From the IMG/VR virus record IMGVR_UViG_3300033148_002257, positions 6,280-70,279 of that record: a stretch of DNA of 64,000 bases, one strand, 5' to 3'. Position 1 is the stretch's first letter; each line of letters starts with the position of its first letter. Made by a program: the position numbers and the translations under genes. Below the pieces are notes generated by a model. It was not told the origin of the DNA and made no database searches. It was given only the letters and a program-made list of their open reading frames with translations. Shown piece after piece: positions 1,315 to 23,120 of this stretch. This DNA is from a virus.

Positions 1315-1482
1315 CAGCTAACAGAGCTTAACAAAAATGAAGCTGGTGATAAGTGGCAGGTACCTTGGCATATGCGCCGCAAGGGTGTGAAAAGACATAC
1401 ACCGAGTTGTTGTGCACGACAACTTGCCTTGGATAAAAGCAACGACGGGCGGTGTTGGGTGTGGAATCCAACCTGTTAGCTG
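1315..1482 (+). ncRNA. structured tRNA-like ncRNA candidate 1
   Basis: 10-bp closing stem CAGCTAACAG/CTGTTAGCTG; D-like arm GCTT/AAGC; T-like arm GTTGG-GTGTGGAAT-CCAAC abutting the closing stem; internal hairpins; directly downstream of the promoter. Confidence 0.55.
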
Positions 1483-1730
1483 AAGGGTACAAGTCAAACG
1501 CCTATAACAACAAATGTTCAGATATGTTATGTGTTGTATAGACAGATATGTTGTTGTGTAGATGTGTTGTCGGGATAGCTAGACGTTTCTTATGGAGACC
1601 ACAGACTGGTAAACGTGATTGTGTTGAAATGGTTTACCGTATTGGTTGTATAGTAAAGCTTCCATGGTTTAGTCTCCTTACATTGTTTGTGGTCTCCATA
1701 AGAAGTGTTCATCTAAAAGGAACAACTGAC

Positions 1731-1949
1731 ATGTTTGATCCTCGTAACCAAACCGTTATATATCTTCTAATCGCCGGCGTTATAACAGGTGTTCTAACCG
1801 TATCGTTTGTTGTCCAATCAGCGGTGTATTGGTTGGCAGAAGATGATATGTCAATATGTCTAGGTTCAATATATCTAGCTAACGCAATTATGACTGGTAT
1901 AGCGTGTATAGTGTGTTTGGTAACCGCTGTTAATATCAACAGAATGTAA
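1731..1949 (+). CDS. small membrane protein (2 TM)
   Basis: AAAGGA RBS before the ATG at 1731; two hydrophobic segments. Confidence 0.55.
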   Translation: MFDPRNQTVIYLLIAGVITGVLTVSFVVQSAVYWLAEDDMSICLGSIYLANAIMTGIACIVCLVTAVNINRM

Positions 1950-1964
1950 GGTAGGACATATAAA

Positions 1965-2324
1965 ATGACGTTTATTCCTATAGACGATACACATTTCTTT
2001 GCGCTTGAAGATTTAACGCGGTTTCTAAATAATGAGACGAAAACGTATTTTGATAGAGATATAGAATCACATGAACTTAACCTTTTACCAGCAGAAATAT
2101 TGCTAATGATGAACGTTTTTGCACATAATGTCTTAAAAACGTCATGTTCTGATGGCGATACAGTTAAACCTTCTTCTATAGAAGCATGGTTATCTTTTAT
2201 AGTCGGCAGGTTAATACATGAAATCATACAGTTACGACCCGATTTACGTGAAAATACGTTGTCTGATGCAGAACATGTTGAACGGTTATTAGACAAATTA
2301 AAAGACGAGGAGGGTACAAGCTAA
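1965..2324 (+). CDS. hypothetical protein
   Basis: RBS AGGTAGGA; stop overlaps the next start (TAATG). Confidence 0.6.
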   Translation: MTFIPIDDTHFFALEDLTRFLNNETKTYFDRDIESHELNLLPAEILLMMNVFAHNVLKTSCSDGDTVKPSSIEAWLSFIVGRLIHEIIQLRPDLRENTLSDAEHVERLLDKLKDEEGTS

Positions 2325-3001
2325 TGACCAACGCTTACGGGTATGTTCGTGTATCGGGTGAAGGACAGATTACGGGACATGGACTTGAAAGGCAACGTGA
2401 AATTATCGAACGGTACGCTGCTGGCCATGATCTTAACCTTATACGTGTGTTTGTAGAACCGGGTACAACCGGTACAATTACAGACAGACCTGCGTTAGGT
2501 GATCTGTTGTTAGCAATTGAACGGAACGGTGTACGTCATGTTGTTGTCGAAAGTCTAGACAGATTAGCACGTGACCTGGTTGTACAAGAAGCTATTGCAG
2601 AGAACTTCAAACGACAAGGGGTTGATCTAATATCTGCTACACAAGGTGACGATCTTGCTAGCGACGATCCCGGTCGGAAACTTATCCGACAACTGTTAGG
2701 TGCGATAGCAGAATACGATAAAAGTATGACTGTGTTGCGGTTAGCGGCGGCACGACGTGCTAAACGTAAAGCTAACGGAGGTAAATGTGAAGGACGAAAA
2801 GCGTATGGAGAATGTGATCCAAAAGAACGAGCAGCTATAGCGCGATGTAAAGAGTTACGTGCTAAAACGGTTGGTAAAGGACGTGGGAAACGACAGTTGA
2901 GTATGACGGAAATTGCTAAAGTTATGAATCAGGAAGGGTATCCGACACGACAAGGTAGACCATGGACAGCGCAGACTGTTAGAAGTGTGTTACGGAAATA
3001 A
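2324..3001 (+). CDS. serine recombinase (resolvase/invertase family) with short C-terminal recombinase/HTH domain
   Basis: YGYVRVS catalytic motif, LDRLARD, AIAEYDK, and C-terminal IAKVMNQEGYPTRQGRPWT. Confidence 0.9.
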   Translation: MTNAYGYVRVSGEGQITGHGLERQREIIERYAAGHDLNLIRVFVEPGTTGTITDRPALGDLLLAIERNGVRHVVVESLDRLARDLVVQEAIAENFKRQGVDLISATQGDDLASDDPGRKLIRQLLGAIAEYDKSMTVLRLAAARRAKRKANGGKCEGRKAYGECDPKERAAIARCKELRAKTVGKGRGKRQLSMTEIAKVMNQEGYPTRQGRPWTAQTVRSVLRK

Positions 3002-3132
3002 CTGGGATTGGTAAAAAGGAAGGGAAAGGTATAACAATGGCTAATACAGGTCATAACAAAGGAATTGCGAGTGTTGACAGATAGTTGCTGTACGTGTTCG
3101 AAACGGAACGACCTAAAAGAAGGAGAACAACA

Positions 3133-3411
3133 ATGAAATATGAATCTGAAAGGTTAAGAAAAAAACCAACGTCTAAAAAACGATTGACAAAGAAACAAGC
3201 GAAAGAAATAGGGTTACAGGGCGGCGAATATGGAACACAGATATTAGAAGATGGTATATGGACAGAGTTTGTAAGTGAACGAACGTTAGCAAATGCACGA
3301 GACACTGTTGTTGATGAACGACGTCAGATTGCGAATAGAGAGGCAACTAACGTTCCTTTACCATATAATGATGTGCGTATTGTGCGAATGTGGTATGAAG
3401 TAATTGATTAA
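3133..3411 (+). CDS. hypothetical protein
   Basis: AAGGAG RBS before ATG 3133. Confidence 0.55.
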   Translation: MKYESERLRKKPTSKKRLTKKQAKEIGLQGGEYGTQILEDGIWTEFVSERTLANARDTVVDERRQIANREATNVPLPYNDVRIVRMWYEVID

Positions 3412-3667
3412 ACAACAACTTGTAAAGGAACAACATAACAATGGAAACTTTAATTCGTATAGTAATATACGTCTGGCTAATCAACGCTGGTATAACAGGT
3501 ATAATGGTGTTTTTATGTTTAACGTTAGGGTTGGCGCATTATCTGTTTGATAAAAGTTCAACAGACGGAAAAACAAAAGAATAACTGGACGGGTACTGGA
3601 ACAACTCGTTATTGCCACCGTCCTATGTATTGGAGAGAGATCGACGTAACGAGGAGGATACAACGAC

Positions 3668-4006
3668 ATGACTTTTGCAAAATGGCTAGAAGAAGTAGGC
3701 GCTTGTAAAGCAGCACGAGACTGGGTTGGAAACCACGGGTTACTGTGGGCATACAAAAACTGCACTCGTCCACACTGGATGTTATGGGTGTTGGAAATGG
3801 CATATCACTGCGAGACTTGGCCTACGTCGTTCGATCTCTCTCAATTGTGGCTCAAACTATACGATGCGGGGTTTGATATGGATGTTTGGTGTGCTACCAG
3901 AGAAGATAGTCGTCAATACCCCCGCATGTGTGATTTTATCCGAGCACACGTCAAACCGGGGACAGTTTCAAATCTGACGAGACGTTTCGAGGAGGAGATG
4001 ATATGA
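3668..4006 (+). CDS. hypothetical phage protein (GACxxAxxW...WMLW type)
   Basis: GAGGAGG RBS; ATGA overlap with next gene. Confidence 0.65.
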   Translation: MTFAKWLEEVGACKAARDWVGNHGLLWAYKNCTRPHWMLWVLEMAYHCETWPTSFDLSQLWLKLYDAGFDMDVWCATREDSRQYPRMCDFIRAHVKPGTVSNLTRRFEEEMI

Positions 4007-4677
4007 GCACGTTAGTACCATCACACGATCCACTACACGCAGACGAACAGCGGTATGTCGTAGTAGATTTGGGTGTAGATGATGATATAGATGATGATTG
4101 TAAATATCTTGGATGGATAAATGGAACGTTACAACTATGTACGCCTACTAAACTATGGCATTGTGCTGGTGATGACGAGTATATAGCTGATTGGCAGTTT
4201 GACAAAGCAACAGCAGAACAGGTTGCCGCTTGTGCTAGAGAGTATAATGCACATTGCGAGGTTCGGCCATGGCCAGAAAACACAGACGAACAGCGGTACA
4301 GTTCAGACGAAGCCGAAGACGACGATATGCTGGCCGCACAGACGAGTAACGCCGCCTTTGCGAGAATGCGCCAGCAGCGGGTAATTGCAGAAGCAGACGA
4401 ACAACAGATGTGGTGTGTTTACATCAGTGAAGCTGCATACCCTTGGCGTGGTCGGTTTGGCAAAGGCAGTACCAAGTTTTTTCGAGAGTATCCCGTCCCT
4501 CTTACACGACAGGAAGCAGAAGAAACAGTTGAAGCATGTCCTGGTCAGAACCCGCAGATATTGCCATATCCGCCACCGTATACGAAATCTTGTAGATGCG
4601 ATGCATGTGACGGTACAGGTAAATGTGACGCATGCAACAGTACAGGCGTTGTGTGGATACCAGACACAGAAGCATAG
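4003..4677 (+). CDS. hypothetical protein with C-terminal DnaJ-like CxxCxGxG zinc finger; paralog of 4689-5213
   Basis: CDACDGTGKCDACNSTG; shares EQxYVV.D.G, VRPWPE.T.EQR, YPWRGR and NPQILPYP with the next ORF. Confidence 0.7.
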   Translation: MSTLVPSHDPLHADEQRYVVVDLGVDDDIDDDCKYLGWINGTLQLCTPTKLWHCAGDDEYIADWQFDKATAEQVAACAREYNAHCEVRPWPENTDEQRYSSDEAEDDDMLAAQTSNAAFARMRQQRVIAEADEQQMWCVYISEAAYPWRGRFGKGSTKFFREYPVPLTRQEAEETVEACPGQNPQILPYPPPYTKSCRCDACDGTGKCDACNSTGVVWIPDTEA

Positions 4678-4688
4678 GAGAATGTGAT

Positions 4689-5213
4689 ATGAACACGTTA
4701 ATACCCAATCACGAACAGTACGTTGTAATAGATATAGGTGCAGAGGCGGCGGGCGAGGACAAATACGTCTCGCGAGTCGAGAACATCACAACTATCGCTA
4801 ACCAAGGATGGGCACGTTTCTCTACACCTTATGTCGCACAGTGTCTTTACGATACAAAACACGCAGCGATGCGTGCTATGTGGCAGGTTGCGGACGATCT
4901 TGGCTGGTGTTGCAAAGTTCGGCCATGGCCAGAAAAGACAGAGGAACAGCGGGTATGGTGTGTTTATGTCGGAGGCATATACCCTTGGAGAGGCAGAGTT
5001 GATAATGAGGAATATGCGGCAAGTTTTCTACAAAAGGAGCCTATTCCGCTTACACGAGAAGAAGCAGAAGAGATAGCAGCAGAGACTTGTTACGAAAACC
5101 CACAGATATTGCCGTATCCATTGACAGATATGCAACCCTGTATGTGTACGAACTGTGACGGTACAGGCGTTGTGTGGGTATCGGACAAAGAAACGATGGA
5201 GGATACTACATGA
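4689..5213 (+). CDS. hypothetical protein, paralog of 4003-4677
   Basis: AGGAG RBS; shared motifs; CTNCDGTG. Confidence 0.7.
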   Translation: MNTLIPNHEQYVVIDIGAEAAGEDKYVSRVENITTIANQGWARFSTPYVAQCLYDTKHAAMRAMWQVADDLGWCCKVRPWPEKTEEQRVWCVYVGGIYPWRGRVDNEEYAASFLQKEPIPLTREEAEEIAAETCYENPQILPYPLTDMQPCMCTNCDGTGVVWVSDKETMEDTT

Positions 5214-5440
5214 GTCAGAGAATGAACGGTAAGTTTTCGATTTTCTGCATACACCTATACGATACAGGTTATCACTTTCGGTTTAGTTTGAAAGACGATT
5301 TGGATAGACATATAGTTACTATAAAAATGTCGCCAGAACATCTTGCATTGGCATTAACTTCTGAAACCAATCTCCCTTGTACTTTTGAGTTGAGTCGTCT
5401 AAAGGTAGATACCGATGACCAAACCGAATGGAGTAACTAA
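5210..5440 (+). CDS. hypothetical protein
   Basis: GGAGG RBS; ATGA coupling. Confidence 0.55.
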   Translation: MSQRMNGKFSIFCIHLYDTGYHFRFSLKDDLDRHIVTIKMSPEHLALALTSETNLPCTFELSRLKVDTDDQTEWSN

Positions 5441-5708
5441 TTCTGCAATCTTGGATAGACGCAATCAAATGTTCAGGGAGTACCTTGTCCAAAAAGCCGT
5501 ACGTCTTGGCATACATGTTGAATATCGCGGGCCAGCATTAGTCGGTAACGCATGGGAGTATGCCCTTAAACGGGGCCGCTATGGGATGGTGTGGCTTCAA
5601 CCCGTTTCGGATATCATGATAGGGGAGGCACCGCTGGAGGATCAAGCAACGTGGATTGTACTCCAGTTTTGCAAACAGATATGTCGGAATGGAGAAAATG
5701 TATCATGA
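5415..5708 (+). CDS. hypothetical protein
   Basis: AAAGGT RBS; operon packing. Confidence 0.5.
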   Translation: MTKPNGVTNSAILDRRNQMFREYLVQKAVRLGIHVEYRGPALVGNAWEYALKRGRYGMVWLQPVSDIMIGEAPLEDQATWIVLQFCKQICRNGENVS

Positions 5709-5866
5709 CCAAACCGAAGTTTGACCGGCTGTTGATGACGATAATCGTGTCGAGTGTAGCGTTGATTGTAGCGGCGTCGGCAGGTGAACTGGTACGTAAC
5801 CAGATTGTGCGTGGGAAAGGCAGATGTATCGAAAAGATTGTTACGTATGAACTGAAAGGGGATTGA
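5705..5866 (+). CDS. small secreted/membrane protein, paralog of the 6055 N-terminus
   Basis: MTIIVSSVALIVAASAGEL...VRGKGR versus MTIIVVSLILIGIATAGEEL...IRGKGR. Confidence 0.55.
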   Translation: MTKPKFDRLLMTIIVSSVALIVAASAGELVRNQIVRGKGRCIEKIVTYELKGD

Positions 5867-6054
5867 TAGTATGGGTTCGACAGAGAAACCAATACCTGTT
5901 ACTATTTGTAAGTCTAGGATAGATAACCTTTTTGAAACGGGTTGTGGTCTTATGGGTTGTGGTTGTTTAACGTTACTGATTCTGGTGTTCCTATTGTTGT
6001 TTATAGGTGTCGTGGTATGAATATCAAATAAACAAACAAAGAGGACAAACATCA

Positions 6055-6459
6055 ATGGTCAAACCTATGACAATAATAGTAGTGAGTTTGATACTAATAG
6101 GTATTGCAACTGCTGGTGAAGAGCTATATAGATTTAAGACTATACGTGGGAAAGGCAGGTATACCGTGGTTGCGCAGGTACCCGACACATCAGAGTTTAG
6201 CGACGTTGTAGGTGTACATTTCTACCAGCGCGATACAGACGAGACGGTTACACGATATTGTGAGTTGCCGGCGTGCCCGGGACAGCGGTTACATATCGTC
6301 ATCGAGTCGCCGCCTATCGGTCGTATCCAATGGGGATGTATGGTTGAGGATGCAGCGGGTAACTTGTCGCCGTTGGATTGGGGTGATGTGCGCGAGACGA
6401 TGCCGCCGTTGCGAATTAGCGGTCAAGCGCGGTTTGAAGGGTGGGGGAAACTTGAATAA
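6055..6459 (+). CDS. exported beta-rich protein with signal peptide
   Basis: GAGGA RBS; hydrophobic N-terminus; VEDAAGNLS resembles the end of an FN3/Ig-like domain. Confidence 0.55.
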   Translation: MVKPMTIIVVSLILIGIATAGEELYRFKTIRGKGRYTVVAQVPDTSEFSDVVGVHFYQRDTDETVTRYCELPACPGQRLHIVIESPPIGRIQWGCMVEDAAGNLSPLDWGDVRETMPPLRISGQARFEGWGKLE

Positions 6460-6472
6460 GGACAAAAAGGAA

Positions 6473-6682
6473 ATGATGTTCTTCGATGAAACAAAAGATT
6501 CAATGATGGACGTGCAACTTGCACGAAATATTCAAGAGATTGTCTTTCTGGGAACTAAAGCAGCTAAAAGAATAATCAACCTCAATCTTTCTCAAGAGTC
6601 TAGTTACGAACGAGGTGTAATAGATACAATTCAATGGATGTTAGGTAAAGATGAAAGGGTTGAAATAGAAATTGGCGTATAA
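6473..6682 (+). CDS. hypothetical protein
   Basis: RBS within a repeated linker; SYERGVIDTIQWMLG. Confidence 0.5.
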   Translation: MMFFDETKDSMMDVQLARNIQEIVFLGTKAAKRIINLNLSQESSYERGVIDTIQWMLGKDERVEIEIGV

Positions 6683-7215
6683 TGTTGTTGTTATGGATCG
6701 AGAATGTGGGTAGTGAAACGTGGGTTGGTGGATGTGGAAGGCTTGAATAAGGAGAAAAGACAATGATATACGGCAGTGTAGGTGTCGGAGTAACAGAGCT
6801 AGTCATCACGTGCAAAACGCGATCAAGCGGTCGAGTGGATATTGCCAAGCATGATGCCGTGATGTTGGTTGGAGAGTATACGGTGGACAATAAACCTGTA
6901 GAATGTGAATCTCGTATCTTCGGGCAAGCGCTTGCTGATTCTAGAGCTAACGCAGAAGCTATTCCTGTAAAGGTACGAGGTATGTTCATTTTTAACTACG
7001 ATGGTCCCGCACCTGTCGTAAACGGCATAGCTGGTGTCTTAATGTCAAGCAGAGGCAAAGTCAAGGCTCCCGTATTTTCTAATGGACAGGGCATTAACCT
7101 GAAGGTTGATACTACAACCAAACAAGTTCACGTATTGTTGTAGTTGTTGTTACGGATCGAGAATGTGGATGGGAAAACGCGGGTTAGCGGATGGGGGACG
7201 TTGAAATGAAAGGAC
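6682..7215 (+). repeat. imperfect direct-repeat intergenic linkers (~60-80 bp) at ~6682-6762 and ~7141-7215, partial copies at ~6430, ~7470 and ~7725
   Basis: GTTGTTGTTAYGGATCGAGAATGTGG...GGGTT.G.GGATG.GG...TTGAA in both main copies. Confidence 0.75.
6763..7143 (+). CDS. capsid cement/decoration-like protein (DUF2190-like beta fold)
   Basis: IAKHDAVML, IFGQALAD and IPVKVRG pattern typical of cement proteins; strong RBS. Confidence 0.45.
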   Translation: MIYGSVGVGVTELVITCKTRSSGRVDIAKHDAVMLVGEYTVDNKPVECESRIFGQALADSRANAEAIPVKVRGMFIFNYDGPAPVVNGIAGVLMSSRGKVKAPVFSNGQGINLKVDTTTKQVHVLL

Positions 7216-7472
7216 GAGATAATTATCGGGTGATTGTACATCCAGATGAACCTTGGTTTCTCAAGGACGGCGATCAGGAAGGAAACCACGAGAAATGGAT
7301 TGGTGTTTGCGAAAGGCTCATAATGGACATTACAAGGCATATTAACGGGATTGTGAGTACTGACTACGAATGGGATGACGTATGCGAGTATTGTGGTGAA
7401 CCATGGGAAGAACCGCCAGAATGTTGTGACGAAGCTATAGAAGAATGGGAGAAGACTGTTGCTGAGGGATAG
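7206..7472 (+). CDS. hypothetical zinc-binding protein
   Basis: CEYCG...ECC motif. Confidence 0.55.
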   Translation: MKGRDNYRVIVHPDEPWFLKDGDQEGNHEKWIGVCERLIMDITRHINGIVSTDYEWDDVCEYCGEPWEEPPECCDEAIEEWEKTVAEG

Positions 7473-7523
7473 CGGATGGGGGAAAGGAGAAAAGGATAAC
7501 GGAAGAAGAATAACTGATTCTCA

Positions 7524-7689
7524 GCGGCCAGTAGCGACGTGGTAGCGTCAAGAGGAGGTCTCGACCGAACATCGCAAGCTCGTGTATCAGCGGTTGATGG
7601 TCTACCAGCGACAACCGACAGCACTGGGCACGAATATCGGTGAGAGGGTGAAGTCGGTAGGCGGCGGGTGAATCCGACCGCTGGCCGCA
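7524..7689 (+). ncRNA. structured tRNA-like ncRNA candidate 2
   Basis: Closing stem GCGGCCAG/CTGGCCGC; TA-GCGA...TCGC D-like stem; long arm TCGTGT/GCACGA and CGGTTG/CAACCG; T-like arm GTCGG...GAAT-CCGAC; GC-rich intergenic segment. Confidence 0.6.
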
Positions 7690-7743
7690 AGTAAAAAGGG
7701 TTGGACAATGGAGAATTGAATGAACGGCGAAGGAGAAAAGACA

Positions 7744-7989
7744 ATGGAAGAACAGACTACAGACGGACAATACATAGCTTTGTTTGCAACATGCGATTGC
7801 GGTAACCAGTTAAAGCTAGTTCCGATTGTTGACGAGACGGGAAGTGACGAATGGACGTGGATTGTATCTGATATGGTGTTAAAATGTGGCAGATGTTCGC
7901 GTTATATTCATCTTTCAGGTCTTCATGTCATCGAAATGAACAACAATGCCTTTTCTTTACCAATAAACCGTAAGGAGGATGACAAATGA
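7744..7989 (+). CDS. hypothetical zinc-ribbon protein
   Basis: AAGGAG RBS; CxC and CxxC. Confidence 0.55.
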   Translation: MEEQTTDGQYIALFATCDCGNQLKLVPIVDETGSDEWTWIVSDMVLKCGRCSRYIHLSGLHVIEMNNNAFSLPINRKEDDK

Positions 7990-8429
7990 TATATCGAATA
8001 GTGATCAGTGTGCCAGATAACGGAACAGAGTCTGTTGACCTGGTTTGCGAGGTTTTGACTGAATTGCGAAGACGGTTGATAGACAATCAGATGTTACTAA
8101 ATCATAGTTTACTATACGGTGTTGGATGTGCGAAATTGTTTACGGATAAAGAGTATGACGCGATAGAAGAAGACGTAGTAATTTTGGAAGGAGCAGAACA
8201 AATGAAAAGACGAACGTATACCGAAACAGTCTGTGAAAGTTGTGGCGCTGTAGGAAAGGTTGACTGGCCGTTTGGCGCTGTACCGGAGAACGAAGTTAGA
8301 AATGTAATACCGCCGGATTGGGTACAGATTAAACATCGCGGGCCGTTTGGCGAACAGAGATTAACTGATCTGTGTAAAGAGTGTGCTGACAGGCTTCTAG
8401 GCGGAGAGGATTGGTATGACGCTGTGTGA
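7986..8429 (+). CDS. hypothetical protein with C-terminal treble-clef zinc finger
   Basis: CESCG...DLCKEC. Confidence 0.55.
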   Translation: MIYRIVISVPDNGTESVDLVCEVLTELRRRLIDNQMLLNHSLLYGVGCAKLFTDKEYDAIEEDVVILEGAEQMKRRTYTETVCESCGAVGKVDWPFGAVPENEVRNVIPPDWVQIKHRGPFGEQRLTDLCKECADRLLGGEDWYDAV

Positions 8430-8743
8430 TTATCAAGAGGTGCATGAACACGAGGCGAGCAATGAGTAACGTACACATATGTAGAGCCTTCATGTGTCAA
8501 CCGGGCGAGGTGTTCGTGTGGGATGTTGACTATCCACGCGGTTGGCTTCGAGTGGCACAGAGCGCTGTAACAGACGACAGCGAAATTATACGTTGTGCCG
8601 ATTGTCGCGAACCGGCGATATATCTGGACTATTTTGCGCCGTATCATACGGAACGTAACCGCTGCGCGAACTGTGCGTGGGCGGAAGGAATCATTACGCG
8701 GGAAGAGCGGGACGAATATCTCAGTAAGGGAGATACGTCATGA
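8426..8743 (+). CDS. hypothetical zinc-finger protein
   Basis: CADC...CANC. Confidence 0.5.
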   Translation: MIIKRCMNTRRAMSNVHICRAFMCQPGEVFVWDVDYPRGWLRVAQSAVTDDSEIIRCADCREPAIYLDYFAPYHTERNRCANCAWAEGIITREERDEYLSKGDTS

Positions 8744-8979
8744 GTAAACCTACAAAAAACGGGAGGCGCATAACGAATAGCCATTTTCATTGGACAGCCG
8801 GCCCTGACCCTAGCTGGCATATACCGGACGCAACTATCTGTCCACCACAAACTGAACAGGAGAAATGTACGATGAGCGACAACCTATCGAGTGCGTGTGG
8901 GAAACGGATGTGGGCGACCTATCACCTGTCTAATCCCACTGTTGTGGTAAAGATGAGTTATGTTACGATTGTGCAATGA
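8740..8979 (+). CDS. hypothetical protein (contains a duplicated segment shared with the next gene)
   Basis: EQEKCTMS is present in both ORFs; GAACAGGAGAAATGTACGATGAG duplicated. Confidence 0.4.
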   Translation: MSKPTKNGRRITNSHFHWTAGPDPSWHIPDATICPPQTEQEKCTMSDNLSSACGKRMWATYHLSNPTVVVKMSYVTIVQ

Positions 8980-9428
8980 ATAGAAACGTCGAGATCGGTG
9001 AACTGAAATACGAGTTGTATCGTACCATAGAACAGGAGAAATGTACGATGAGTGAAGATCTGTTGGGTGGGTGTCAGAAAAGGGTTGGACATTATCACGC
9101 TGAAGGTCCGGAAGCTGAGACGGTAGAGTTAATTTGCGGGTTTAACTGTCGCTGTTTCGAGTGCGCAAAGAAGAAGAACGCCCAGATCACCGAACTGGAA
9201 AAGGCGCTGGCGAAAATAGACGAGGAGTATATCGGCCCTGACGAGACTTACGACCCGTATATGACATGGTCTGAGTTAGCTGTTGAGAACGGACGGTTAG
9301 ATGCTGAGATTGCAAAGCTACGATATAAAATGGCCCAGTTTGCAACGTGCATTGATTTTACAAAATATACCGCTAACCATCTTTTGATGGCGATAGACAA
9401 AACAAAAGGAAGAAATGATAATGGATGA
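8976..9428 (+). CDS. hypothetical coiled-coil/zinc protein (alternative start 9048)
   Basis: GGCQKR...CFECAKKKN, paralogous to 9648-9953. Confidence 0.55.
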   Translation: MNRNVEIGELKYELYRTIEQEKCTMSEDLLGGCQKRVGHYHAEGPEAETVELICGFNCRCFECAKKKNAQITELEKALAKIDEEYIGPDETYDPYMTWSELAVENGRLDAEIAKLRYKMAQFATCIDFTKYTANHLLMAIDKTKGRNDNG

Positions 9429-9627
9429 TATACACGACATTTCAGTAACTGAAACCAAACTCAAAGATACAATACTAGCTTTACAACAAGAGATTGCAGA
9501 GTTGCGAGACGCAGTGGCTTGGTTAAAAGGTCCAGAAGGTTGGTACAGCGGACACCCTGCCGATACGTTGTTGGCAGTATATAGAAGAGAAAAAAGAGTG
9601 GAGAAAAATGTTAAGACAGAAACATAA
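9415..9627 (+). CDS. hypothetical coiled-coil protein
   Basis: RBS AAAGGA; operon packing. Confidence 0.5.
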   Translation: MIMDDIHDISVTETKLKDTILALQQEIAELRDAVAWLKGPEGWYSGHPADTLLAVYRREKRVEKNVKTET

Positions 9628-9647
9628 TTACAGAAAAGGAGAAAGTT

Positions 9648-9953
9648 ATGACACAAATAGATAATCCTTTAGATGGATGTCGAAAACATGCCATTTCGGT
9701 ATTGGCAATAACTAATGATCGATTAGAACTGGCATGGGTTAATCTCGATGACACGGATACAATAACAAAACATATGAGTCTAGGCCGATGCGGTGATGGT
9801 GATGTTGGATTGTGTCCTATCTGTGCAAAGAAAAAGAACAAGGCACTAACAAAAACAGATTCAGTATCTATTGACATATTTGAAGATTCAGTATCCGTTG
9901 ACGTATCTGAACCGAAAACTGAATCTACAGAGTTAGAGGACGCAGTAGATTGA
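9648..9953 (+). CDS. hypothetical zinc protein, paralog of 9048-9428
   Basis: DGCRKH...CPICAKKKN. Confidence 0.55.
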   Translation: MTQIDNPLDGCRKHAISVLAITNDRLELAWVNLDDTDTITKHMSLGRCGDGDVGLCPICAKKKNKALTKTDSVSIDIFEDSVSVDVSEPKTESTELEDAVD

Positions 9954-10118
9954 TTTGGATGATTAGAGCTTGCAATATTAATGCCAGAGGTGATGTCGGA
10001 AATCCCAACTACTATGCGTAATAACCACTCGATGTCACCTTTGGCTATATATCTGGTTGTATATCTGAACGTAACTGGTTTTTGGCAGTATATAAAGAGA
10101 ACAAAAAGAGGTACAACG

Positions 10119-10313
10119 ATGGCTGATATATGGCGACAGACGCCTGTACGTGACGCAATATCTAGACTAAAAACAGAAATAGATTATGCTTATAGTTTAG
10201 TAATAGACTCTTATGAAGCTAAACTAAAAGATAGAGCAGATATGTTGGTGTATTGGAGGCAACGTGCAATAGAAGCTGAAAAACGTCTAGAACCAGAAGA
10301 AGGAGACAAATAA
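10119..10313 (+). CDS. hypothetical protein
   Basis: GAGGT RBS before ATG 10119; TAATG coupling. Confidence 0.5.
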   Translation: MADIWRQTPVRDAISRLKTEIDYAYSLVIDSYEAKLKDRADMLVYWRQRAIEAEKRLEPEEGDK

Positions 10314-10582
10314 TGCCATATATAGCACAGTATAGACGTGACGAAATAGACGTTGCACTTGACCCTTTACTCAATGTATTAGCAAACAACGAATTAGCAG
10401 AGATAGGAGATATAGTTTATGTAATATACAGAATTGTAAAAGAGATGTATGGTAACAGTGTTAGATTTTCTAACAAAGTACAGGGTATAACAGCGTTAGA
10501 ATCTGCAAAACTAGAGTATTATCGTCGTGTGATGGTGTCTCATGAAAACGAAGCTATAGAAAGAAACGGAGATATAGACTAA
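10313..10582 (+). CDS. conserved phage protein (MPYI...KLEYYRR...NGD family, DUF6899-like)
   Basis: Recognisable MPYI, LESAKLEYYRR and ERNGDI motifs. Confidence 0.7.
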   Translation: MPYIAQYRRDEIDVALDPLLNVLANNELAEIGDIVYVIYRIVKEMYGNSVRFSNKVQGITALESAKLEYYRRVMVSHENEAIERNGDID

Positions 10583-10640
10583 TGAACCGACAACCTTAAT
10601 ATAAGAGTAAAGATATATAAAAAAAGGGGGAAAGACTAAC

Positions 10641-10892
10641 ATGGCAAATAACAGAAAGAAAAAATCCAAACAGCCAACCAATCCAACGCCAACAGCGTGT
10701 AAAGATTGTCGACATATGTTGCCAAAATATAGAATAGTTAATGCTGTTGATAAAGATGAAATAGATTATCAGTGTGCTGCAAAGTTGCGACCTATAACGT
10801 TTAACGCTATAACGGGACAGAACGAGTTAGGTGAATATCCGTTGTGTAAAGATGTGAATGATGGCAAATGCGAGTTGTTTGAGAGGAAATAA
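10641..10892 (+). CDS. small cysteine-rich phage protein
   Basis: CKDCRH...C...C...NDGKCELF. Confidence 0.6.
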   Translation: MANNRKKKSKQPTNPTPTACKDCRHMLPKYRIVNAVDKDEIDYQCAAKLRPITFNAITGQNELGEYPLCKDVNDGKCELFERK

Positions 10893-10898
10893 CGGGTT

Positions 10899-11192
10899 AT
10901 GGTACAGGTTATAGTAAACGTTAACGGGGTTGTAGTAGCTAGTGTTGACATTACACAGACTAAAAGTAGTAATATAACCACTAATGATATAAGAAAAGGT
11001 GAACGCGAATATAATATAACTGCTATTCAACATTATACAACACACCACACATTAACGCATTGTTTAGAGAACAAAAACGAACCTAAAATAGATCAAATAA
11101 ACGTTGTATTACAAAGAGAACAGGGATATTATCTAACGTCACCGTTAGAGTTTGTATATATAGCGATTGGGAAAGTGTTAGGAGTGGGATAG
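10899..11192 (+). CDS. hypothetical protein
   Basis: ORF in the operon, coding-like composition. Confidence 0.5.
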   Translation: MVQVIVNVNGVVVASVDITQTKSSNITTNDIRKGEREYNITAIQHYTTHHTLTHCLENKNEPKIDQINVVLQREQGYYLTSPLEFVYIAIGKVLGVG

Positions 11193-11224
11193 ATAAAAAG
11201 GATGAGTGTGTATGAGATAGATGT

Positions 11225-11300
11225 ATTGCGGTGAGGTATGGTTCGGTGGGGTGAGGTAGGGTTGGGTCGGGTAAGGTGCGGTTTAGGTCAATTCGGTAGT
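11225..11300 (+). repeat. degenerate G/T-rich pentamer tract
   Basis: GCGGT GAGGT ATGGT TCGGT GGGGT GAGGT AGGGT TGGGT CGGGT AAGGT GCGGT. Confidence 0.8.
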
Positions 11301-11330
11301 ATAAGCTAAAAACAAGGTAAAAACATACAT

Positions 11331-11636
11331 ATGCCACGATTACATTATAAACATGAAAAAAGTATATCTCTTACAGATGCACGTGACATGGGACTGGAAA
11401 TCTTTTACGCTATCCGTCGTCGTGACCCGCATCTTAGCGTTAATGCATGTAACTGGTGGTGGCCTGACATAGGATGGTGCGTTGTACCGATGTTGTTCAA
11501 CTACGAAGACGATGCACGACAGTTTATGCAAGAGGCGATAGACGAAGATATTATAGACGACGCTATAGTTGTGCCGGCGTTTGCACCGTTACGGAAATCT
11601 AAAGAGAATGTGGATGTAACCGGAAAAATAAAGTAA
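11331..11636 (+). CDS. hypothetical protein
   Basis: RBS AAGGT; ORF in the operon. Confidence 0.5.
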   Translation: MPRLHYKHEKSISLTDARDMGLEIFYAIRRRDPHLSVNACNWWWPDIGWCVVPMLFNYEDDARQFMQEAIDEDIIDDAIVVPAFAPLRKSKENVDVTGKIK

Positions 11637-11661
11637 AGTACAGTGAAAGGTACAGATAACA

Positions 11662-12108
11662 ATGATAGCGCCAGATAACAAAACCACCGATAGCGAGTTG
11701 GTAGACGCTGCAAAACGGGTAATCGAACTTGCATCTCCAATAGTTCAAGGGTCTACAATCGACACAGAAATCCGAGAGAAAGCTAAAGATATAGAAAAAG
11801 ATGCTATACAACTTCAACAAAAGATGTTAGACCTTAAAGGCGATATGAACGATAGAGAACGTATACTCGAAACACGTGTAAAAGTTAAGGTAGACGAGTA
11901 TACGTGGTGTGAAGAGACCCTTTACATTATAGAGGATTTGTTGTATAGTATAGAGAGAATAATCAGCGGTATACGAACGTTACCGTTACAGAATATACCG
12001 AGTAAGAGACAGGATATATCAAGTAAGAGACAGATAACAAAACATGACGAATATAAAGGAGTCCAGTATGACAAGAGAACAACAGCCAAACTGGGAAACG
12101 TTACTTGA
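11662..12108 (+). CDS. hypothetical coiled-coil protein
   Basis: RBS AAAGGT; helical composition. Confidence 0.55.
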   Translation: MIAPDNKTTDSELVDAAKRVIELASPIVQGSTIDTEIREKAKDIEKDAIQLQQKMLDLKGDMNDRERILETRVKVKVDEYTWCEETLYIIEDLLYSIERIISGIRTLPLQNIPSKRQDISSKRQITKHDEYKGVQYDKRTTAKLGNVT

Positions 12109-12253
12109 AGATCGACAAAGAACAGACCCAGTACCAGGACTGGGATACCCGCAAGTTGTACCGGAAGAAGAAGACGTTGACAAATTAGGTAGCAGCGACT
12201 GGTACGAAAATCCAGTTAGTAAAAAGTCTAGAAGCATGAGTTCGACGTGTTAG
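12068..12253 (+). CDS. hypothetical protein
   Basis: AAGGAG RBS before ATG 12068. Confidence 0.45.
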   Translation: MTREQQPNWETLLEDRQRTDPVPGLGYPQVVPEEEDVDKLGSSDWYENPVSKKSRSMSSTC

Positions 12254-12269
12254 ATTATATAACTATAGA

Positions 12270-12335
12270 ATCATACCACACCTTACCATACCCAACCACA
12301 CTTAACCATACCATACCCAACCTAACTACACCATA
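12270..12335 (-). repeat. degenerate pentamer tract (ACCNN on +) at the convergence of the two transcription units
   Basis: ACCAC ACCTT ACCAT ACCCA ACCAC ACTTA ACCAT ACCAT ACCCA ACCTA. Confidence 0.75.
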
Positions 12336-18443: not shown

Positions 18444-18577
18444 TTTCTACCTCTCCCAACCCGTTGCGTTGTTTTACATCCGCCACGACCTCGGTTTGCA
18501 CGACGTCCTTTACCACTACCGTCTCGACGCGGTATACCTTTCTTTTTTGTAGCCATTTCTATCACCTAAACTTCCTT

Positions 18578-19380: not shown

Positions 19381-19489
19381 AACATAAAAAAAGTGGTCTG
19401 TAGGGGTACATATAACAGTATAGATGTAAACAACAGGTTCGTACACGTTATTTGCACTAAACTAAAGTTATATGTACCCCTTACCACTG

Positions 19490-20083: not shown

Positions 20084-20142
20084 TTTTTCGTCTCTCCTTT
20101 TCTTTTACAAACCAAACGTTACACAACAACATCTAAACGCCA

Positions 20143-20352
20143 TTAACCACCCCCTTCGTTCTGTTCTAAATAACGTCTGCCAGTTTCGATAATCTGTCGA
20201 ATTTGCCGTTTTGTAAGCGTTAAAACAGCTACGTTATCGCTATCGTCAACGCCATGAATCTGAAACCGGTTAGAAGTAATACCAGCCCAAATGTTGTTAA
20301 CACTCAAATCGTCTATATCGTCAGAACCTATAATCGCAACAGATAGACTCAT
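20143..20352 (-). CDS. hypothetical protein
   Basis: ATGA coupling. Confidence 0.5.
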   Translation of the reverse strand: MSLSVAIIGSDDIDDLSVNNIWAGITSNRFQIHGVDDSDNVAVLTLTKRQIRQIIETGRRYLEQNEGGG

Positions 20353-21131: not shown

Positions 21132-21390
21132 CAGACTTTTCCTCCGCAATTTCTGTTATTTTGTCCAACGTAACAAGTATTCCATCCGTATCTAACTCAA
21201 TCTGTTCCCATCTCAAAACGTCTGTATACTTAACATAAGCTATAAAAGATGCAACGAACCCCGATAAAAACTTTCGTGCATCTCTTTTAGAAAGTCCAGC
21301 TCGATGAAGAACCGCTATTCCACTTTTAAGATACCGATAAAACAGTTCCGCCGCTACACGACAATCGTTGTCAGCCTCGCGCATAGACAT
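21115..21390 (-). CDS. hypothetical protein
   Basis: GGAGG RBS. Confidence 0.5.
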   Translation of the reverse strand: MSMREADNDCRVAAELFYRYLKSGIAVLHRAGLSKRDARKFLSGFVASFIAYVKYTDVLRWEQIELDTDGILVTLDKITEIAEEKSDAYVH

Positions 21391-22393
21391 CTTTATCCCT
21401 CCGTTCAAATATCTCTTCACTTACCCCGCCAGTATCACATATAGGACGATATTCACACATGTCACCATAGCGTATACATGCATTCTCGTTCTGATAAAAC
21501 GACCCACGTTCTTCACATTCTCGTATCTCTTGCGCTACAAACATATACCGATGAATTAACGCACTAAAATCAAACTCGTTACGATAAAACCTTTTACCAA
21601 ACGTTTTAGCCTTTTTATCCCAACCAACAAAATAATATGACGGGCGACTGATTATATCTTGAAATATACGTTCTTCAAACCCGTCAACAGATTCAGCAAC
21701 GTTACGTGATCTACCAGCTTTTAGCGGTTTCTGTCCAGGTCGTCGTACAACTTGCATAATACAGTATTGTAAAGAGGAGTCTAACATAAAATATGTACCA
21801 ACCTGTGAAGTTATGTTAGGTACAGCTAAATAGTTTTGCGGATTACCTACAAACTTGTTTTCAATAAAGAATCCTGGCCCTTTACCGTCATAAACAGCCT
21901 TTACAAACGGCATAGTATAATTTTCAACTGGCGGCAAAAGTTCTGTGACAGCGACTTGGGGTGTGATTTTTTTTGGCAACTGAAGTTGTAAAGATTCAGT
22001 TGCGCGTATAACAGCTAGAACTTTTGCCGCCTCATAAGGGGGAATTTCCAGTTTATCTATTATCTCCGTTAACCCGTCAAACATAAAAGTATTCTCGTTA
22101 TAATAACTATCACACGCTTTATCCCATATTTTACCTAACTTAATAGCGTTACTCGCTTTTGCGTCTTTAACCCTAATCCCCTGTATATAAGAGTAATAAT
22201 ACTCTCGCCGACATCTACACCAGGTTTGTACTGCGCTATGTGACAGTCGAGGAGCTAACGTTTTTATCGCTTCCGTACATAAAAACTTTGAACCTAGTTT
22301 ACACAGCCCAGGTTGACCTTGCGCTGTCCGTATATAATGAATACACGGTAACTGTCCGCCAGGTACTATCTGTCGTTTTTCACATTTAGACAT
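21371..22393 (-). CDS. PD-(D/E)XK RecB/Cas4-like exonuclease
   Basis: LSHSAVQTWCRCRR, D...IENK, QVGTY, C-terminal C...CEYRPIC. Confidence 0.8.
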   Translation of the reverse strand: MSKCEKRQIVPGGQLPCIHYIRTAQGQPGLCKLGSKFLCTEAIKTLAPRLSHSAVQTWCRCRREYYYSYIQGIRVKDAKASNAIKLGKIWDKACDSYYNENTFMFDGLTEIIDKLEIPPYEAAKVLAVIRATESLQLQLPKKITPQVAVTELLPPVENYTMPFVKAVYDGKGPGFFIENKFVGNPQNYLAVPNITSQVGTYFMLDSSLQYCIMQVVRRPGQKPLKAGRSRNVAESVDGFEERIFQDIISRPSYYFVGWDKKAKTFGKRFYRNEFDFSALIHRYMFVAQEIRECEERGSFYQNENACIRYGDMCEYRPICDTGGVSEEIFERRDKDVYARG

Positions 22394-22415
22394 AACCGGT
22401 TATCCAATAGAAATA

Positions 22416-22533
22416 ATAGGCAGTACAGAAACGGGCACAAAGGAGCATAAGGGGGAACAGTTACGGTTGTTACGAATAGAACAAGAGGGGTCGGTAAGAT
22501 AAAGTAACAACCACAACAATCTGTACTGCCTAT
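22416..22533. ncRNA. candidate structured RNA/leader with a 14-bp terminal stem
   Basis: ATAGGCAGTACAGA/TCTGTACTGCCTAT perfect inverted repeat; inner GGTTGTTAC/GTAACAACC stem. Confidence 0.5.
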
Positions 22534-22559
22534 ACTTCAACATTTTCAAGCTTTTCCTA

Positions 22560-22589
22560 TTGACAAATGTTTAGCCGATATGGTATACT
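22560..22589 (+). promoter_or_regulatory. sigma70 promoter antisense to the surrounding genes
   Basis: TTGACA-18 nt-TATACT; shares TTTCCTNTTGACAAA and GATATGGTATACTGT with the 1251 promoter. Confidence 0.65.
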
Positions 22590-22599
22590 GTCTAACGTC

Positions 22600-22652
22600 C
22601 TTCCGAAAGGGAGACACCCCTTAGGCTGTCGGACTTCTGTCCTTCAGCCTTT
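22600..22652 (-). other. hairpin element 1 of the AAGGGAGACACCCC family
   Basis: Minus strand GGCTG-AA-GGAC-AGAA-GTCC-GA-CAGCC then GGGGTGTCTCCCTT. Confidence 0.55.
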
Positions 22653-22959
22653 TATTTTCATCTTCGACAAGGTGACTCCGTACCGTTGCCACGGGATATG
22701 AACAGGGTATGAAATGTTTAACCGACAGATTCTAACGACGTTTCTCCGTCCAGACTGTTCGTTATCAGCTATGTTCATTCTTATCTATTCCCCACCGTTA
22801 TCGCTATGAAACGAAGGTATAAACACCGATCTTCGTAACCGTTCGACAAGTTCATACCGTCGAACCATTTGTCTGTACGCAATCGATTGAACCAAAAATG
22901 CAAACCATCCTATAAACGCTATAAATATCAGTATCGCTTTCACTATATCTCCTAAAAAT

Positions 22960-23120
22960 AGACTTGGCTGGACTTAGCTTTTGGCTTACCAGCACAACTG
23001 AAAGCAGATTAGCGTATCATGCTAAATTCAGTTGACCTGCCCTGTGACCATACGGTGATCGTGCCGTACCAGCGACAGTGCGTTACCCCACCTGCTATAA
23101 GGTTTTTCCGCCACAAGCCT
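22960..23120 (-). ncRNA. structured tRNA-like ncRNA candidate 3 (clearest cloverleaf)
   Basis: Acceptor AGGCTTG/CAAGTCT; TGGCGGAA...AACGC D-arm; CTGT/ACAG arm with TACGG/CCGTA; variable arm CAACTGAA/TTCAGTTG; T-arm GCTGG...AAGT-CCAGC. Confidence 0.65.

What the first reader, a model, noticed from the sequence alone, without database searches (positions are those of the whole stretch)
1315..23120. Family of three ~165-nt enlarged tRNA-like RNAs (1315-1482 +, 7524-7689 +, 22960-23120 -)
Seen: three intergenic segments of similar length and unrelated sequence. Each folds by eye into a cloverleaf: a closing acceptor-like stem, an RGC-initiated D-like stem, and a 5-bp T-like stem whose loop ends in GAAT or AAGT followed by CC next to the acceptor. 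Each carries extra hairpins inserted in its loops or central arms. Two lie directly behind strong promoters. None has a normal 7-nt anticodon loop or encoded CCA. Inference: an undescribed class of tRNA-mimic RNAs, acting for example as decoys for anticodon nucleases or tRNA-sensing defences, as RNase P/Z processing signals for phage operons, or as YrlA-like scaffolds.
Basis: partly seen in the sequence, partly recalled or inferred. Interest (0 to 1): 0.8.

Follow-up and report, generated by a model that had tools for sequence, protein, structure and literature searches.

The report
Three tRNA-shaped manA-type phage RNAs
A 70-kb tailed phage with no tRNA genes carries three folded RNAs of about 165 bases that close like a tRNA; one is a distant member of the known manA RNA family and the other two share only its size and closing end.

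Summary
Three gene-free segments (1315-1482 +, 7524-7688 +, 22959-23122 -) are 168, 165 and 164 nt. Each is closed by an 8-10 bp stem whose 3' strand directly follows a 5-bp T-arm-like hairpin (G-N-N-G-G / loop ending A-R-U / C-C-N-N-C). The genome holds 3 such modules; 300 shuffles averaged 0.013. Two sit behind strong promoters.

The reading as an undescribed class does not hold for E3. E3 matches Rfam manA (RF01745) over its full length at 31.8 bits, E 8e-5, below the 55.2-bit cut-off. It is also the only significant hit of my own cyanophage manA model.

E1 and E2 match no Rfam family, neither manA model, and no tRNA model. They share only size and the closing module. E2 also carries the manA motifs GUGGU and ACCA and is the GC-richest 165-nt stretch of the window.

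No homologues were found, so covariation could not be tested.

Best reading: manA-superfamily RNAs on a tRNA-like scaffold, with unknown function. This scan has already noted many manA-type RNAs in other phages, so this is a new variant of a known kind.

The parts
1315..1482 (+). E1: 168-nt folded RNA. It has a 10-bp closing stem (1315-1324 / 1473-1482) and 5-6 internal hairpins.
   Evidence: (MFE -59.8, z -3.41, 0 of 200 shuffles as stable). No Rfam or manA-model hit.
1454..1472 (+). E1 T-arm-like / manA-P5-like hairpin GTTGG-GTGTGGAAT-CCAAC, followed directly by the 3' strand of the closing stem.
   Evidence: The cyanophage manA consensus has GTTGG...AATCCAACC at the same place. Local P5 alignment to model R2 scores -0.8 bits.
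1251..1280 (+). Promoter-like site TTGACA-18-TATACT (11 of 12, TG extended -10), about 35 nt upstream of E1.
7524..7688 (+). E2: 165-nt folded RNA between two + strand genes. It has an 8-9 bp GC-rich closing stem. Its first hairpin has a GUGGUA loop (7536-7549), and UACCAG lies at 7603-7608.
   Evidence: MFE -68.9, z -2.47; GC-richest 165-nt window, 61.8%. No Rfam or manA-model hit.
7653..7678 (+). E2 T-arm-like / manA-P5-like hairpin GTCGG-TAGGCGGCGGGTGAAT-CCGAC. This pairing costs 3.2 kcal/mol more than the MFE alternative.
22957..23135 (-). E3: divergent manA-type RNA. The range is the Rfam match; the core from closing stem to closing stem is 22959-23122 (164 nt).
   Evidence: RF01745 at 31.8 bits, E 8.4e-5 in 25 kb, model 1-192. 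Own model R1 at 16.1 bits, E 4.5e-4, sole significant hit. 29 of 42 model pairs kept.
22967..22993 (-). E3 P5 / T-arm-like hairpin GCTGG-17 nt ending AAGT-CCAGC.
   Evidence: 5 of 5 pairs.
23167..23196 (-). Promoter-like site TTGACT-18-TATACT (10 of 12, TG), about 38 nt upstream of the E3 closing stem.
22941..22953 (-). AGGAG (22953-22949) and the GTG start (22943-22941) of a 52-aa small hydrophobic ORF (22785-22943). The AGGAG begins 5 nt after the E3 closing stem.
   Evidence: No family match for the ORF.

Best explanation
The three segments are non-coding, tRNA-scaffold RNAs of the manA type, carried by a tailed phage that has no tRNA genes.

E3 is a true but divergent manA RNA. It has a closing helix P1 and a first arm with a conserved internal loop. 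It has a long arm where a tRNA has its anticodon arm, and a long arm where a class II tRNA has its variable arm. It has a 5-bp T-arm-like P5 stacked next to P1.

E1 and E2 have the same size (165-168 nt against about 173 nt for cyanophage manA) and the same P1-P5 closure, but different interiors. I take them as further, more diverged members of the same superfamily.

Shown: the anatomy, the non-random shared module, the promoters, and the manA match of E3.

Inferred: all three are made as parts of early transcripts (E1 and E3 as leaders, E2 as a spacer). They act as compact folded RNA particles, not as decoders. They are probably released or protected by their tRNA-like closure. They probably associate through exposed loops, as manA RNAs were reported to do in vitro when they form closed oligomers.
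For: E3:
- Full-length RF01745 alignment at 31.8 bits. It keeps GUG.C.GAA.AA, GGUAA.G, UGGU, CAGGU, UG..GGUA and CC..CC.
- An independent model built from 9 cyanophage manAs puts E3 first in 25 kb on both strands (16.1 bits, E 4.5e-4). The next hit scores 5.5 bits.
- P1 5/5, P4 7/7 and P5 5/5 pairs are kept, mostly through changes on both sides.

Shared module: 3 in the genome against 0.013 in 300 shuffles. The lengths are 168, 165 and 164 nt. The module lies on the transcribed strand each time.

E2: GC 61.8%, the maximum of the window. It has GUGGU then ACCA in manA order (invariant columns; sequence).

tRNA-like scaffold:
- The manA+E3 model's best hits in 60 kb of relatives (both strands) are the class II tRNA-Leu(UAA) genes of G002 (12.2 bits, E 0.034, rank 1) and G001 (8.0 bits, E 0.59, rank 2). 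P1 aligns to the acceptor stem, P4 to the variable arm and P5 to the T arm.
- E3 begins ...UG-GCG-GAA.. and continues ..CGC-A, like the tRNA-Leu D arm.

Synteny: E3 lies between homologues of the 25293-26056 genes and the PD-(D/E)XK exonuclease gene. In relative G001 that interval holds 26 tRNA genes.

manA oligomers come from passages of preprint 10.64898/2026.07.01.735769.
Against: E3 is below Rfam's cut-off (31.8 against 55.2 bits). It lacks the P3b and P3c hairpins, and only 29 of 42 pairs of my model are kept. Its folding z-score is only -1.34.

E1 and E2 get no global alignment to either manA model. None of the 27 (R1) or 38 (R2) hits at E<=10 overlaps them, and their best local scores are 1.5 and 1.4 bits. 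A real tRNA-Leu scores higher on that model than they do.

With the cyanophage-only model the tRNA-Leu hit is in the noise (7.2 bits, E 0.7, rank 2). The tRNA likeness of manA proper is therefore weak by this test.

No homologue of any element was found, so no covariation supports any E1 or E2 helix. Their interiors have competing folds. The module pattern was defined post hoc. There are no expression data. Three complete relatives (portal identity 40-46%) have no manA match and no such module outside tRNA genes.
Confidence: 0.45

Rival explanations
1. The elements are cis-acting leader elements, riboswitch-like or translational. Each folded domain controls the gene(s) directly downstream, which is how manA was originally classed.
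For: E3 ends 5 nt before the AGGAG of a 52-aa ORF. E1 lies in a roughly 440-nt leader behind a strong promoter (sequence). Rfam and Weinberg 2010 class manA as cis-regulatory in 5' UTRs (passages). The extended MFE of E3 pairs upstream CC/AAGA with UUUUUAGG and touches the SD. E1 holds duplicated segments, GGGTGTGAAA and GGGTGTGGAA (D10), that allow alternative pairings.
Against: No terminator or anti-terminator pair and no clear SD-sequestering helix was found. E1 lies about 250 nt from the next start (1731) and E2 about 55 nt from the next start (7744). Three unrelated sequences would need three signals. No ligand is known for manA after 16 years (passages). The cryo-EM work points to an RNA-only assembly.
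Confidence: 0.25
2. One reading: a new class of tRNA mimics that act through tRNA-binding machinery, as decoys for anticodon nucleases or tRNA-sensing defences, as RNase P/Z processing signals, or as YrlA-like scaffolds.
For: The closure resembles a T arm plus acceptor stem. E3 can be threaded on a class II tRNA-Leu. The phage has no tRNA genes. The E3 locus corresponds to a tRNA array in relative G001. E2 has a D-arm-like UA-GC..GUGGUA.. start.
Against: There are no hits from ARAGORN, RF00005 at E<=10, tmRNA or Y RNA. The T-like loops are 9, 16 and 17 nt, not the 7-nt T loop. The acceptor-like stems are 8-10 bp, not 7. There is no discriminator-CCA, and no anticodon loop for an anticodon nuclease to cut. 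E3 belongs to a known family, so the class is not undescribed.
Confidence: 0.12
3. Only E3 is a functional RNA gene. E1 and E2 are unrelated structured spacers, for example mRNA-stabilising or RNase III/E processing hairpins. Their T-arm-like closure is convergent, or a remnant of decayed tRNA genes.
For: No covariance model links E1 or E2 to E3 or manA. A MAFFT alignment of the three is not in register. The interiors differ in helix number. The same leader also has another unrelated long hairpin (1576-1715).
Against: The module count is 3 against 0.013 expected. The three lengths are almost identical. E2's extreme GC is typical of an RNA gene. E2 has the manA motifs in order.
Confidence: 0.15
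4. The elements are promoter-proximal RNAs that bind RNA polymerase and make it terminator-resistant, like the put RNAs of phage HK022 (recalled, not checked in any call).
For: E1 and E3 start about 30-40 nt after strong promoters.
Against: E2 has no promoter. The elements are more than twice the size of put RNAs and have a different architecture. There is no Rfam match.
Confidence: 0.03

Closest known systems
manA RNA motif (Rfam RF01745; Weinberg et al. 2010, PMC2864571; cryo-EM preprint 10.64898/2026.07.01.735769)
   Same: For E3: the same order of helices P1-P2-P3-P4-P5 and the same conserved junction letters. The 5-bp P5 (G..GG / loop ..AAU / CC..C) abuts the 3' strand of P1. The size is similar and the position is in a 5' leader. 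For E1 and E2: the size and the P1-P5 closure. For E2: also the GUGGU and ACCA motifs.
   Different: E3 scores 31.8 bits against the 55.2-bit cut-off. It lacks P3b and P3c and the consensus CUGUA/UACAG loop-loop pairing. E1 and E2 do not align to manA models at all. The host phage is a 70-kb siphovirus-like phage with sigma-70/AGGAG signals, not a T4-like cyanophage. There are three dissimilar copies in one genome.
Class II tRNAs (tRNA-Leu), e.g. the tRNA-Leu(UAA) genes of relative phages G001 and G002
   Same: Five helices in the same order. After the closing stem come UG, a GCG...CGC stem and a single A before the next arm. There is a long arm at the variable-arm position and a 5-bp G..GG/CC..C arm next to the 3' strand.
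   Different: There is no anticodon loop, no 7-nt T loop, no CCA, and the closing stem is 8-10 bp. Hairpins sit inside the D-like and T-like loops. tRNA finders do not detect the elements.
Stable tRNA-like RNAs of phage tRNA clusters (T4 species 1 and 2 RNAs, also called RNA C and D; T5 RNA1 and RNA2). Recalled, and named in earlier notes of this scan; no paper was found in my search.
   Same: They are phage-encoded, non-decoding RNAs of 120-150 nt with tRNA-like ends and unknown function.
   Different: Those lie inside tRNA clusters and are cut out by tRNA-processing enzymes. Here there is no tRNA cluster, the sequences were not compared, and processing is untested.

Membership tests
manA (RF01745) | Covariance-model score at or above the family's gathering score (55.2 bits) | tested here: not met
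   E3 scores 31.8 bits (E 8.4e-5 in 25 kb). E1 and E2 have no match at E<=10. A genuine manA of P-SSM2 scores 181.6 bits.
manA (RF01745) | Helices P1, P2, P3, P4 and P5 in order, with pairs maintained | tested here: met
   This applies to E3 only. P1 5/5, P3 5/6 plus P3a 3/3, P4 outer 7/7 and P5 5/5 pairs are kept in my model alignment. P2 is aligned in the Rfam alignment. P3b and P3c are absent. It is not met for E1 or E2.
manA (RF01745) | Loop-loop pairing between the P4 loop and the P5 loop (NNGUA with UACNN, covarying in cyanophage copies) | tested here: inconclusive
   Covariation was seen among 9 cyanophage manAs: CUGUA/UACAG, AUGUA/UACAU and GAGUA/UACUC. E3 has no such pair between the apical P4 loop and the P5 loop. 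A 5-nt alternative, UUAGC in P4 with GCUAA in the P5 loop, exists by eye (sequence).
manA (RF01745) | Position in a potential 5' UTR | tested here: met
   E3 lies between a promoter-like site and the AGGAG/GTG of a 52-aa ORF. E1 lies in a leader. E2 lies between genes without a promoter.
manA (RF01745) | Self-assembly into closed oligomers (preprint) | not testable with these tools
   Known only from passages of preprint 10.64898/2026.07.01.735769. Its supplementary figures with the secondary structures were not available.
tRNA (RF00005 / ARAGORN) | Detection by tRNA models | tested here: not met
   ARAGORN finds 0 genes. RF00005 gives 0 matches at E<=10 in the whole genome, while 14 of 14 control genomes ring.
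tRNA (RF00005 / ARAGORN) | 7-nt anticodon loop, 7-nt T loop, 7-bp acceptor stem and 3' CCA or discriminator | tested here: not met
   The T-like loops are 9, 16 and 17 nt. The closing stems are 10, 8-9 and 8 bp. No CCA follows.
tmRNA / Y RNA (YrlA-like) | Match to the Rfam models | tested here: not met
   No such match at E<=10 in the three local cmscan runs. ARAGORN finds no tmRNA.

The most novel reading that the evidence does not exclude
This phage replaced a tRNA array with three diverged, tRNA-derived manA-type RNAs that work together. E2 and E3 would dock through their perfect 11-nt complementarity (E2 UACCAGCGACA with E3 UGUCGCUGGUA) to build a mixed RNA-only assembly in the infected cell. 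The set would then show both the descent of the manA family from class II tRNA and a hetero-oligomeric form of the RNA cages so far seen only as homo-oligomers in vitro.
Probability: 0.06. Interest if true: 0.8.

Novelty: new variant of a known kind. Interest (0 to 1): 0.45.

Why it matters
manA is an orphan RNA: a riboswitch candidate since 2010 with no ligand. A 2026 preprint reports that it forms RNA-only cages. Its known range is T4-like cyanophages, marine metagenomes and Photobacterium.

A sub-threshold member in an unrelated 70-kb tailed phage widens the family, as many other notes of this scan also suggest. It sits beside two same-sized RNAs that keep only the tRNA-like closure. That gives a small natural series in which the closure is constant and the interior varies. 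Such a series is useful for asking which part carries the function and whether the family descends from class II tRNA.

The value is limited because nothing here is supported by covariation or expression.

Tried and rejected
Searches for homologues:
- Megablast of window 1-12000 against GenBank phages gave no match.
- blastn 'distant' of each element against the phage collection gave nothing for E1 and E2. E3 gave one 48-nt chance-level hit (E 0.7).
- The sliding-clamp protein next to E1 has no relative among 2094 candidates in the 5.8-billion protein set apart from itself. Only two hits at 22% identity appear in phage records.
- The search for related loci with the clamp and with the exonuclease found nothing.

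Relatives reached through the portal alignment, 22 loci:
- RF01745 found nothing at E<=1 in 5 records, 3 of them complete.
- The 6.6-kb E1-E2 region found no DNA match in the other 19 records.
- No T-arm-plus-closing-stem module occurs outside tRNA genes in G001-G003. The one hit is tRNA-Cys.

Sequencing runs: none was listed, and no RNA holder was listed.

A joint model of E1, E2 and E3 was not built. MAFFT does not put their stems in register, so the third model slot was left unused.

ARAGORN:
- With introns allowed it calls one tRNA-Leu(UAA) with a 206-nt intron at window 52609-52903 (-). This lies inside two protein genes that have homologues in the relatives, and Rfam sees no intron there, so I take it as false.
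- At lowered thresholds it 'genes', which is noise.

ORFs overlapping the elements (7364-7744 -, 7435-7770 -, 1146-1442 -, 1318-1497 -, 23019-23168 +) match no Pfam or PHROG family at E<=0.1.

In my constrained fold the E1 hairpin constraint and the E3 closing-stem constraint were mis-set. Only the E2 result (-64.0 against -67.2 kcal/mol) is used.

Literature: the search for 'manA RNA' with 'tRNA-like' found 2 papers holding both terms and listed 1, the CaCoFold paper. In the passages I read earlier, manA serves there only as a toy alignment and a listed family. No listed paper describes manA as tRNA-like. The search for T4 'species 1 RNA' found none.

Full report
WHAT THE WINDOW IS

The window is bases 6280-70279 of a 70,279-bp IMG/VR virus record with direct terminal repeats. 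GC content is 42%. PHROG and Pfam matches show a tailed phage with terminase, portal, major head, tape measure and a 2182-aa tail protein. It also has a replication and recombination module with sliding clamp, helicase, methyltransferase, a Sak4-like protein and a PD-(D/E)XK exonuclease. Genes run on the + strand in 1-12300 and on the - strand from 12355 onward. ARAGORN finds no tRNA or tmRNA gene. At gathering thresholds Rfam finds only a type II hammerhead at 63414-63479.

THE OBSERVATION

The three segments are real. Measured from closing stem to closing stem they are 168, 165 and 164 nt.

- E1 is closed by a perfect 10-bp stem.
- E2 is closed by 8-9 GC-rich pairs.
- E3 is closed by 8 pairs.

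In each, the 3' strand of that stem is directly preceded by a 5-bp hairpin of the form G-N-N-G-G / loop ending A-R-U / C-C-N-N-C.

This hairpin occurs 4 times in the whole genome on both strands: the three elements and one inside an ORF at 8910-8939. In 300 dinucleotide shuffles the mean was 0.87. When I also require a closing stem of at least 8 bp whose 5' strand lies 80-200 nt upstream, the genome has 3. The shuffles average 0.013, 4 of 300 reach 1, and none reaches 2.

I wrote the pattern after seeing the elements. It is, however, simply the tRNA T-arm consensus. In the relatives it picks the T arms of tRNA-Gln, Pro, Cys and Ser in G001 and of tRNA-Asn and Leu in G002.

Folding energies are unusual only for E1 (z -3.41, 0 of 200 shuffles as stable). 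E2 has z -2.47 and E3 has z -1.34. E2 is the GC-richest 165-nt window of the 64 kb, at exactly 7524-7688: 61.8% against 41.7 +/- 5.5%.

Promoter-like sites of 11/12 and 10/12, both with an extended -10, lie about 35 nt before E1 and about 38 nt before E3. None lies before E2.

ORFs that overlap the elements match no protein family.

WHAT E3 IS

A relaxed Rfam scan of 25 kb gives one meaningful hit. E3 on the minus strand aligns over the whole manA model (RF01745, positions 1-192) at 31.8 bits, E 8.4e-5, below the 55.2-bit cut-off.

To check this independently I took 9 cyanophage manA RNAs. I found P-SSM2 with the Rfam model at 181.6 bits and the others by blastn. I aligned them. Their consensus fold has 42 pairs, 23 of them with compensatory changes.

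A model built from them (R1) finds E3 as the only significant hit in window 1-25000 on both strands, at 16.1 bits and E 4.5e-4. The next hit scores 5.5 bits.

In that alignment E3 keeps 29 of 42 pairs. P1 is 5/5, the outer P4 is 7/7 and P5 is 5/5, mostly through changes on both sides. The P3b and P3c hairpins are missing.

E3 ends 5 nt before the AGGAG and GTG of a 52-aa hydrophobic ORF. This fits the 5' UTR habit of manA (passages of PMC2864571). I conclude that E3 is a divergent manA-type RNA and not a member by Rfam's own threshold.

WHAT E1 AND E2 ARE NOT

Neither matches any Rfam family at E<=10 in 400-nt searches. Neither is among the 27 hits of R1. Neither is among the 38 hits of R2, a model built from manA plus E3, at E<=10. 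Searched alone, their best scores are 1.5 and 1.4 bits. Only E1's last hairpin aligns locally to P5, at -0.8 bits. RF00005 (tRNA) gives no match at E<=10 anywhere in the genome, while all 14 control genomes ring.

WHAT LINKS THE THREE

- Size. They are 164-168 nt, and cyanophage manA is about 173 nt from P1 to P1.
- The closing module. It is also the manA P5-P1 module. The cyanophage consensus reads TTGTTGGTATACAG.AATCCAACCTCCC. E1 reads TGTTGG-GTGTGGAATCCAACCT. E2 reads GTCGGTA...GTGAATCCGACC.
- manA motifs in E2. E2 has GUGGU in the loop of its first hairpin and ACCA about 60 nt later. These are the two invariant loop motifs of manA, in the same order. For a random 130-nt interior I estimate this at a few per cent. 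This is an inference, not a computed test.
- Strand. All three lie on the locally transcribed strand.

This is suggestive of one superfamily, but it is not a demonstration.

THE tRNA QUESTION

The manA+E3 model, run without filters over 60 kb of three relatives on both strands, gave as its best hit the class II tRNA-Leu(UAA) of G002 (12.2 bits, E 0.034). Its second hit was the tRNA-Leu(UAA) of G001 (8.0 bits, E 0.59). P1 aligned to the acceptor stem, P4 to the long variable arm and P5 to the T arm.

E3 reads stem-UG-GCG-GAAAAA[hairpin]GUAA-CGC-A-5-bp stem. The tRNA-Leu reads stem-UG-GCG-AAAUUGGCAAA-CGC-A-5-bp stem.

The cyanophage-only model scores the same tRNA at only 7.2 bits (E 0.7, rank 2), which is in the noise. 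The tRNA likeness is therefore mostly a property of E3, and it is weak as a statistic.

No tRNA-defining feature is met. There is no 7-nt T loop, no anticodon loop, no 7-bp acceptor stem and no CCA.

E3 sits in the interval between the homologues of genes 25293-26056 and the exonuclease gene. In relative G001 that interval holds an array of 26 tRNA genes.

Earlier notes of this scan had already read manA as built on a tRNA-like core. One of those notes was later marked as partly fallen. My own test gives only the marginal support described here.

In the searchable library, two papers hold both 'manA RNA' and 'tRNA-like', and one was listed, the CaCoFold paper. In the passages I read of it, manA is only a toy alignment and a listed family. 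I therefore found none that links the two.

NO COMPARATIVE OR EXPRESSION EVIDENCE

The phage is nearly alone in the databases.

- The clamp next to E1 has no relative.
- blastn finds nothing.
- The nearest phages share 40-48% portal identity.
- Those relatives have neither manA matches, nor DNA similarity, nor the module outside tRNA genes.
- No sequencing run was listed.

None of the helices of E1 or E2 could therefore be tested by covariation. Their interiors have competing folds. For E2 the manA-like P5 costs 3.2 kcal/mol more than the MFE alternative.

HOW IT MOST LIKELY WORKS

Shown: there are three compact, same-sized folds with a common closure. Two directly follow strong promoters. One is manA-like and abuts a ribosome-binding site.

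Inferred, with my odds:

- About 0.45: all three are manA-superfamily RNAs on a tRNA-like scaffold, made as parts of early transcripts, and they act as folded particles. The acceptor/T-like stack would give nuclease-resistant or processable ends. Exposed loops would mediate RNA-RNA contacts, as a 2026 preprint reports for manA RNAs that form 8-, 10- and 60-mers through kissing loops (passages).
- About 0.25: they are cis-acting leaders.
- About 0.12: they are tRNA mimics acting on tRNA machinery.
- About 0.15: only E3 is a functional RNA gene and E1 and E2 are unrelated spacers.
- About 0.03: they are put-like antiterminators.

One unexplained detail is that E2 (nt 80-90) and E3 (nt 46-56) are perfectly complementary over 11 nt. 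This was reached by 2 of 300 shuffled pairs. The other two hetero-pairs show only 6 nt.

VERDICT

This scan has already noted manA-type RNAs on other DNA (117 notes hold the words). The case is therefore a new variant of a known kind. Its modest extra interest comes from three diverged copies in a phage without tRNA genes.

Noticed in passing
window 22560-22660 (+): A strong + strand promoter-like site (TTGACA-18-TATACT, 11 of 12, TG) faces the E3 transcript. It is followed by two hairpins, the second of which (GGCUG..CAGCC) runs into UUUUAUUUU (z -3.58). This looks like a roughly 65-nt terminated small RNA, antisense to the minus-strand message downstream of E3.
   Followed up: partly
window 1483-1730 (+): The leader between E1 and the next plausible gene (ATG 1731, 72 aa) holds direct repeats (CAGATATGTT at 1519 and 1543; a 20-nt repeat at 1529 and 1562). 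It also holds a 31-nt inverted repeat (1576-1606 / 1685-1715) that folds into a hairpin with about 17 closing pairs.
   Followed up: partly
window 63414-63479 (+), within 62900-63700: A type II hammerhead ribozyme scores 63.9 bits. It lies in the second most GC-rich part of the window (60-61%) and is antisense to an unassigned 249-aa ORF (62733-63482 -).
   Followed up: no
window 7603-7613 (E2) and 23067-23077 (E3): E2 and E3 transcripts are perfectly complementary over 11 nt, reached by 2 of 300 shuffled pairs. The E3 part spans the 5' strand of its P3 and the UGGUA motif.
   Followed up: partly
window 2324-3001 (+): This serine recombinase ORF has only 225 aa. The Resolvase domain is complete, but the Recombinase domain stops at profile positions 18-50 of 102 (PHROG integrase positions 87-309 of 651). 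The gene may be truncated, split or interrupted.
   Followed up: no
window 6267-6431 (+): This is the third most GC-rich 165-nt stretch (60.6%). The surrounding 241 nt fold to -80 kcal/mol. It overlaps two unassigned overlapping ORFs (6007-6459, 6212-6682) and may be another structured RNA or a foreign insert.
   Followed up: no
window 52609-52903 (-): With introns allowed, ARAGORN calls a tRNA-Leu(UAA) with a 206-nt intron. It lies inside two protein genes conserved in the relatives and Rfam sees no intron there, so it is probably a false call.
   Followed up: partly
relatives G001 42664-42680 (+) and G002 51139-51155 (+), 23477-23493 (+): These are perfect T-arm-like hairpins (GTTGGTTCGAATCCAAC and others) that ARAGORN does not assign to a tRNA gene. 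They may be tRNA-like RNAs or missed tRNAs in the relatives.
   Followed up: no
window 8910-8939 (+): This is the fourth copy of the T-arm-like hairpin pattern. It lies inside an ORF and has no closing stem, which is consistent with the 0.87 expected by chance.
   Followed up: yes
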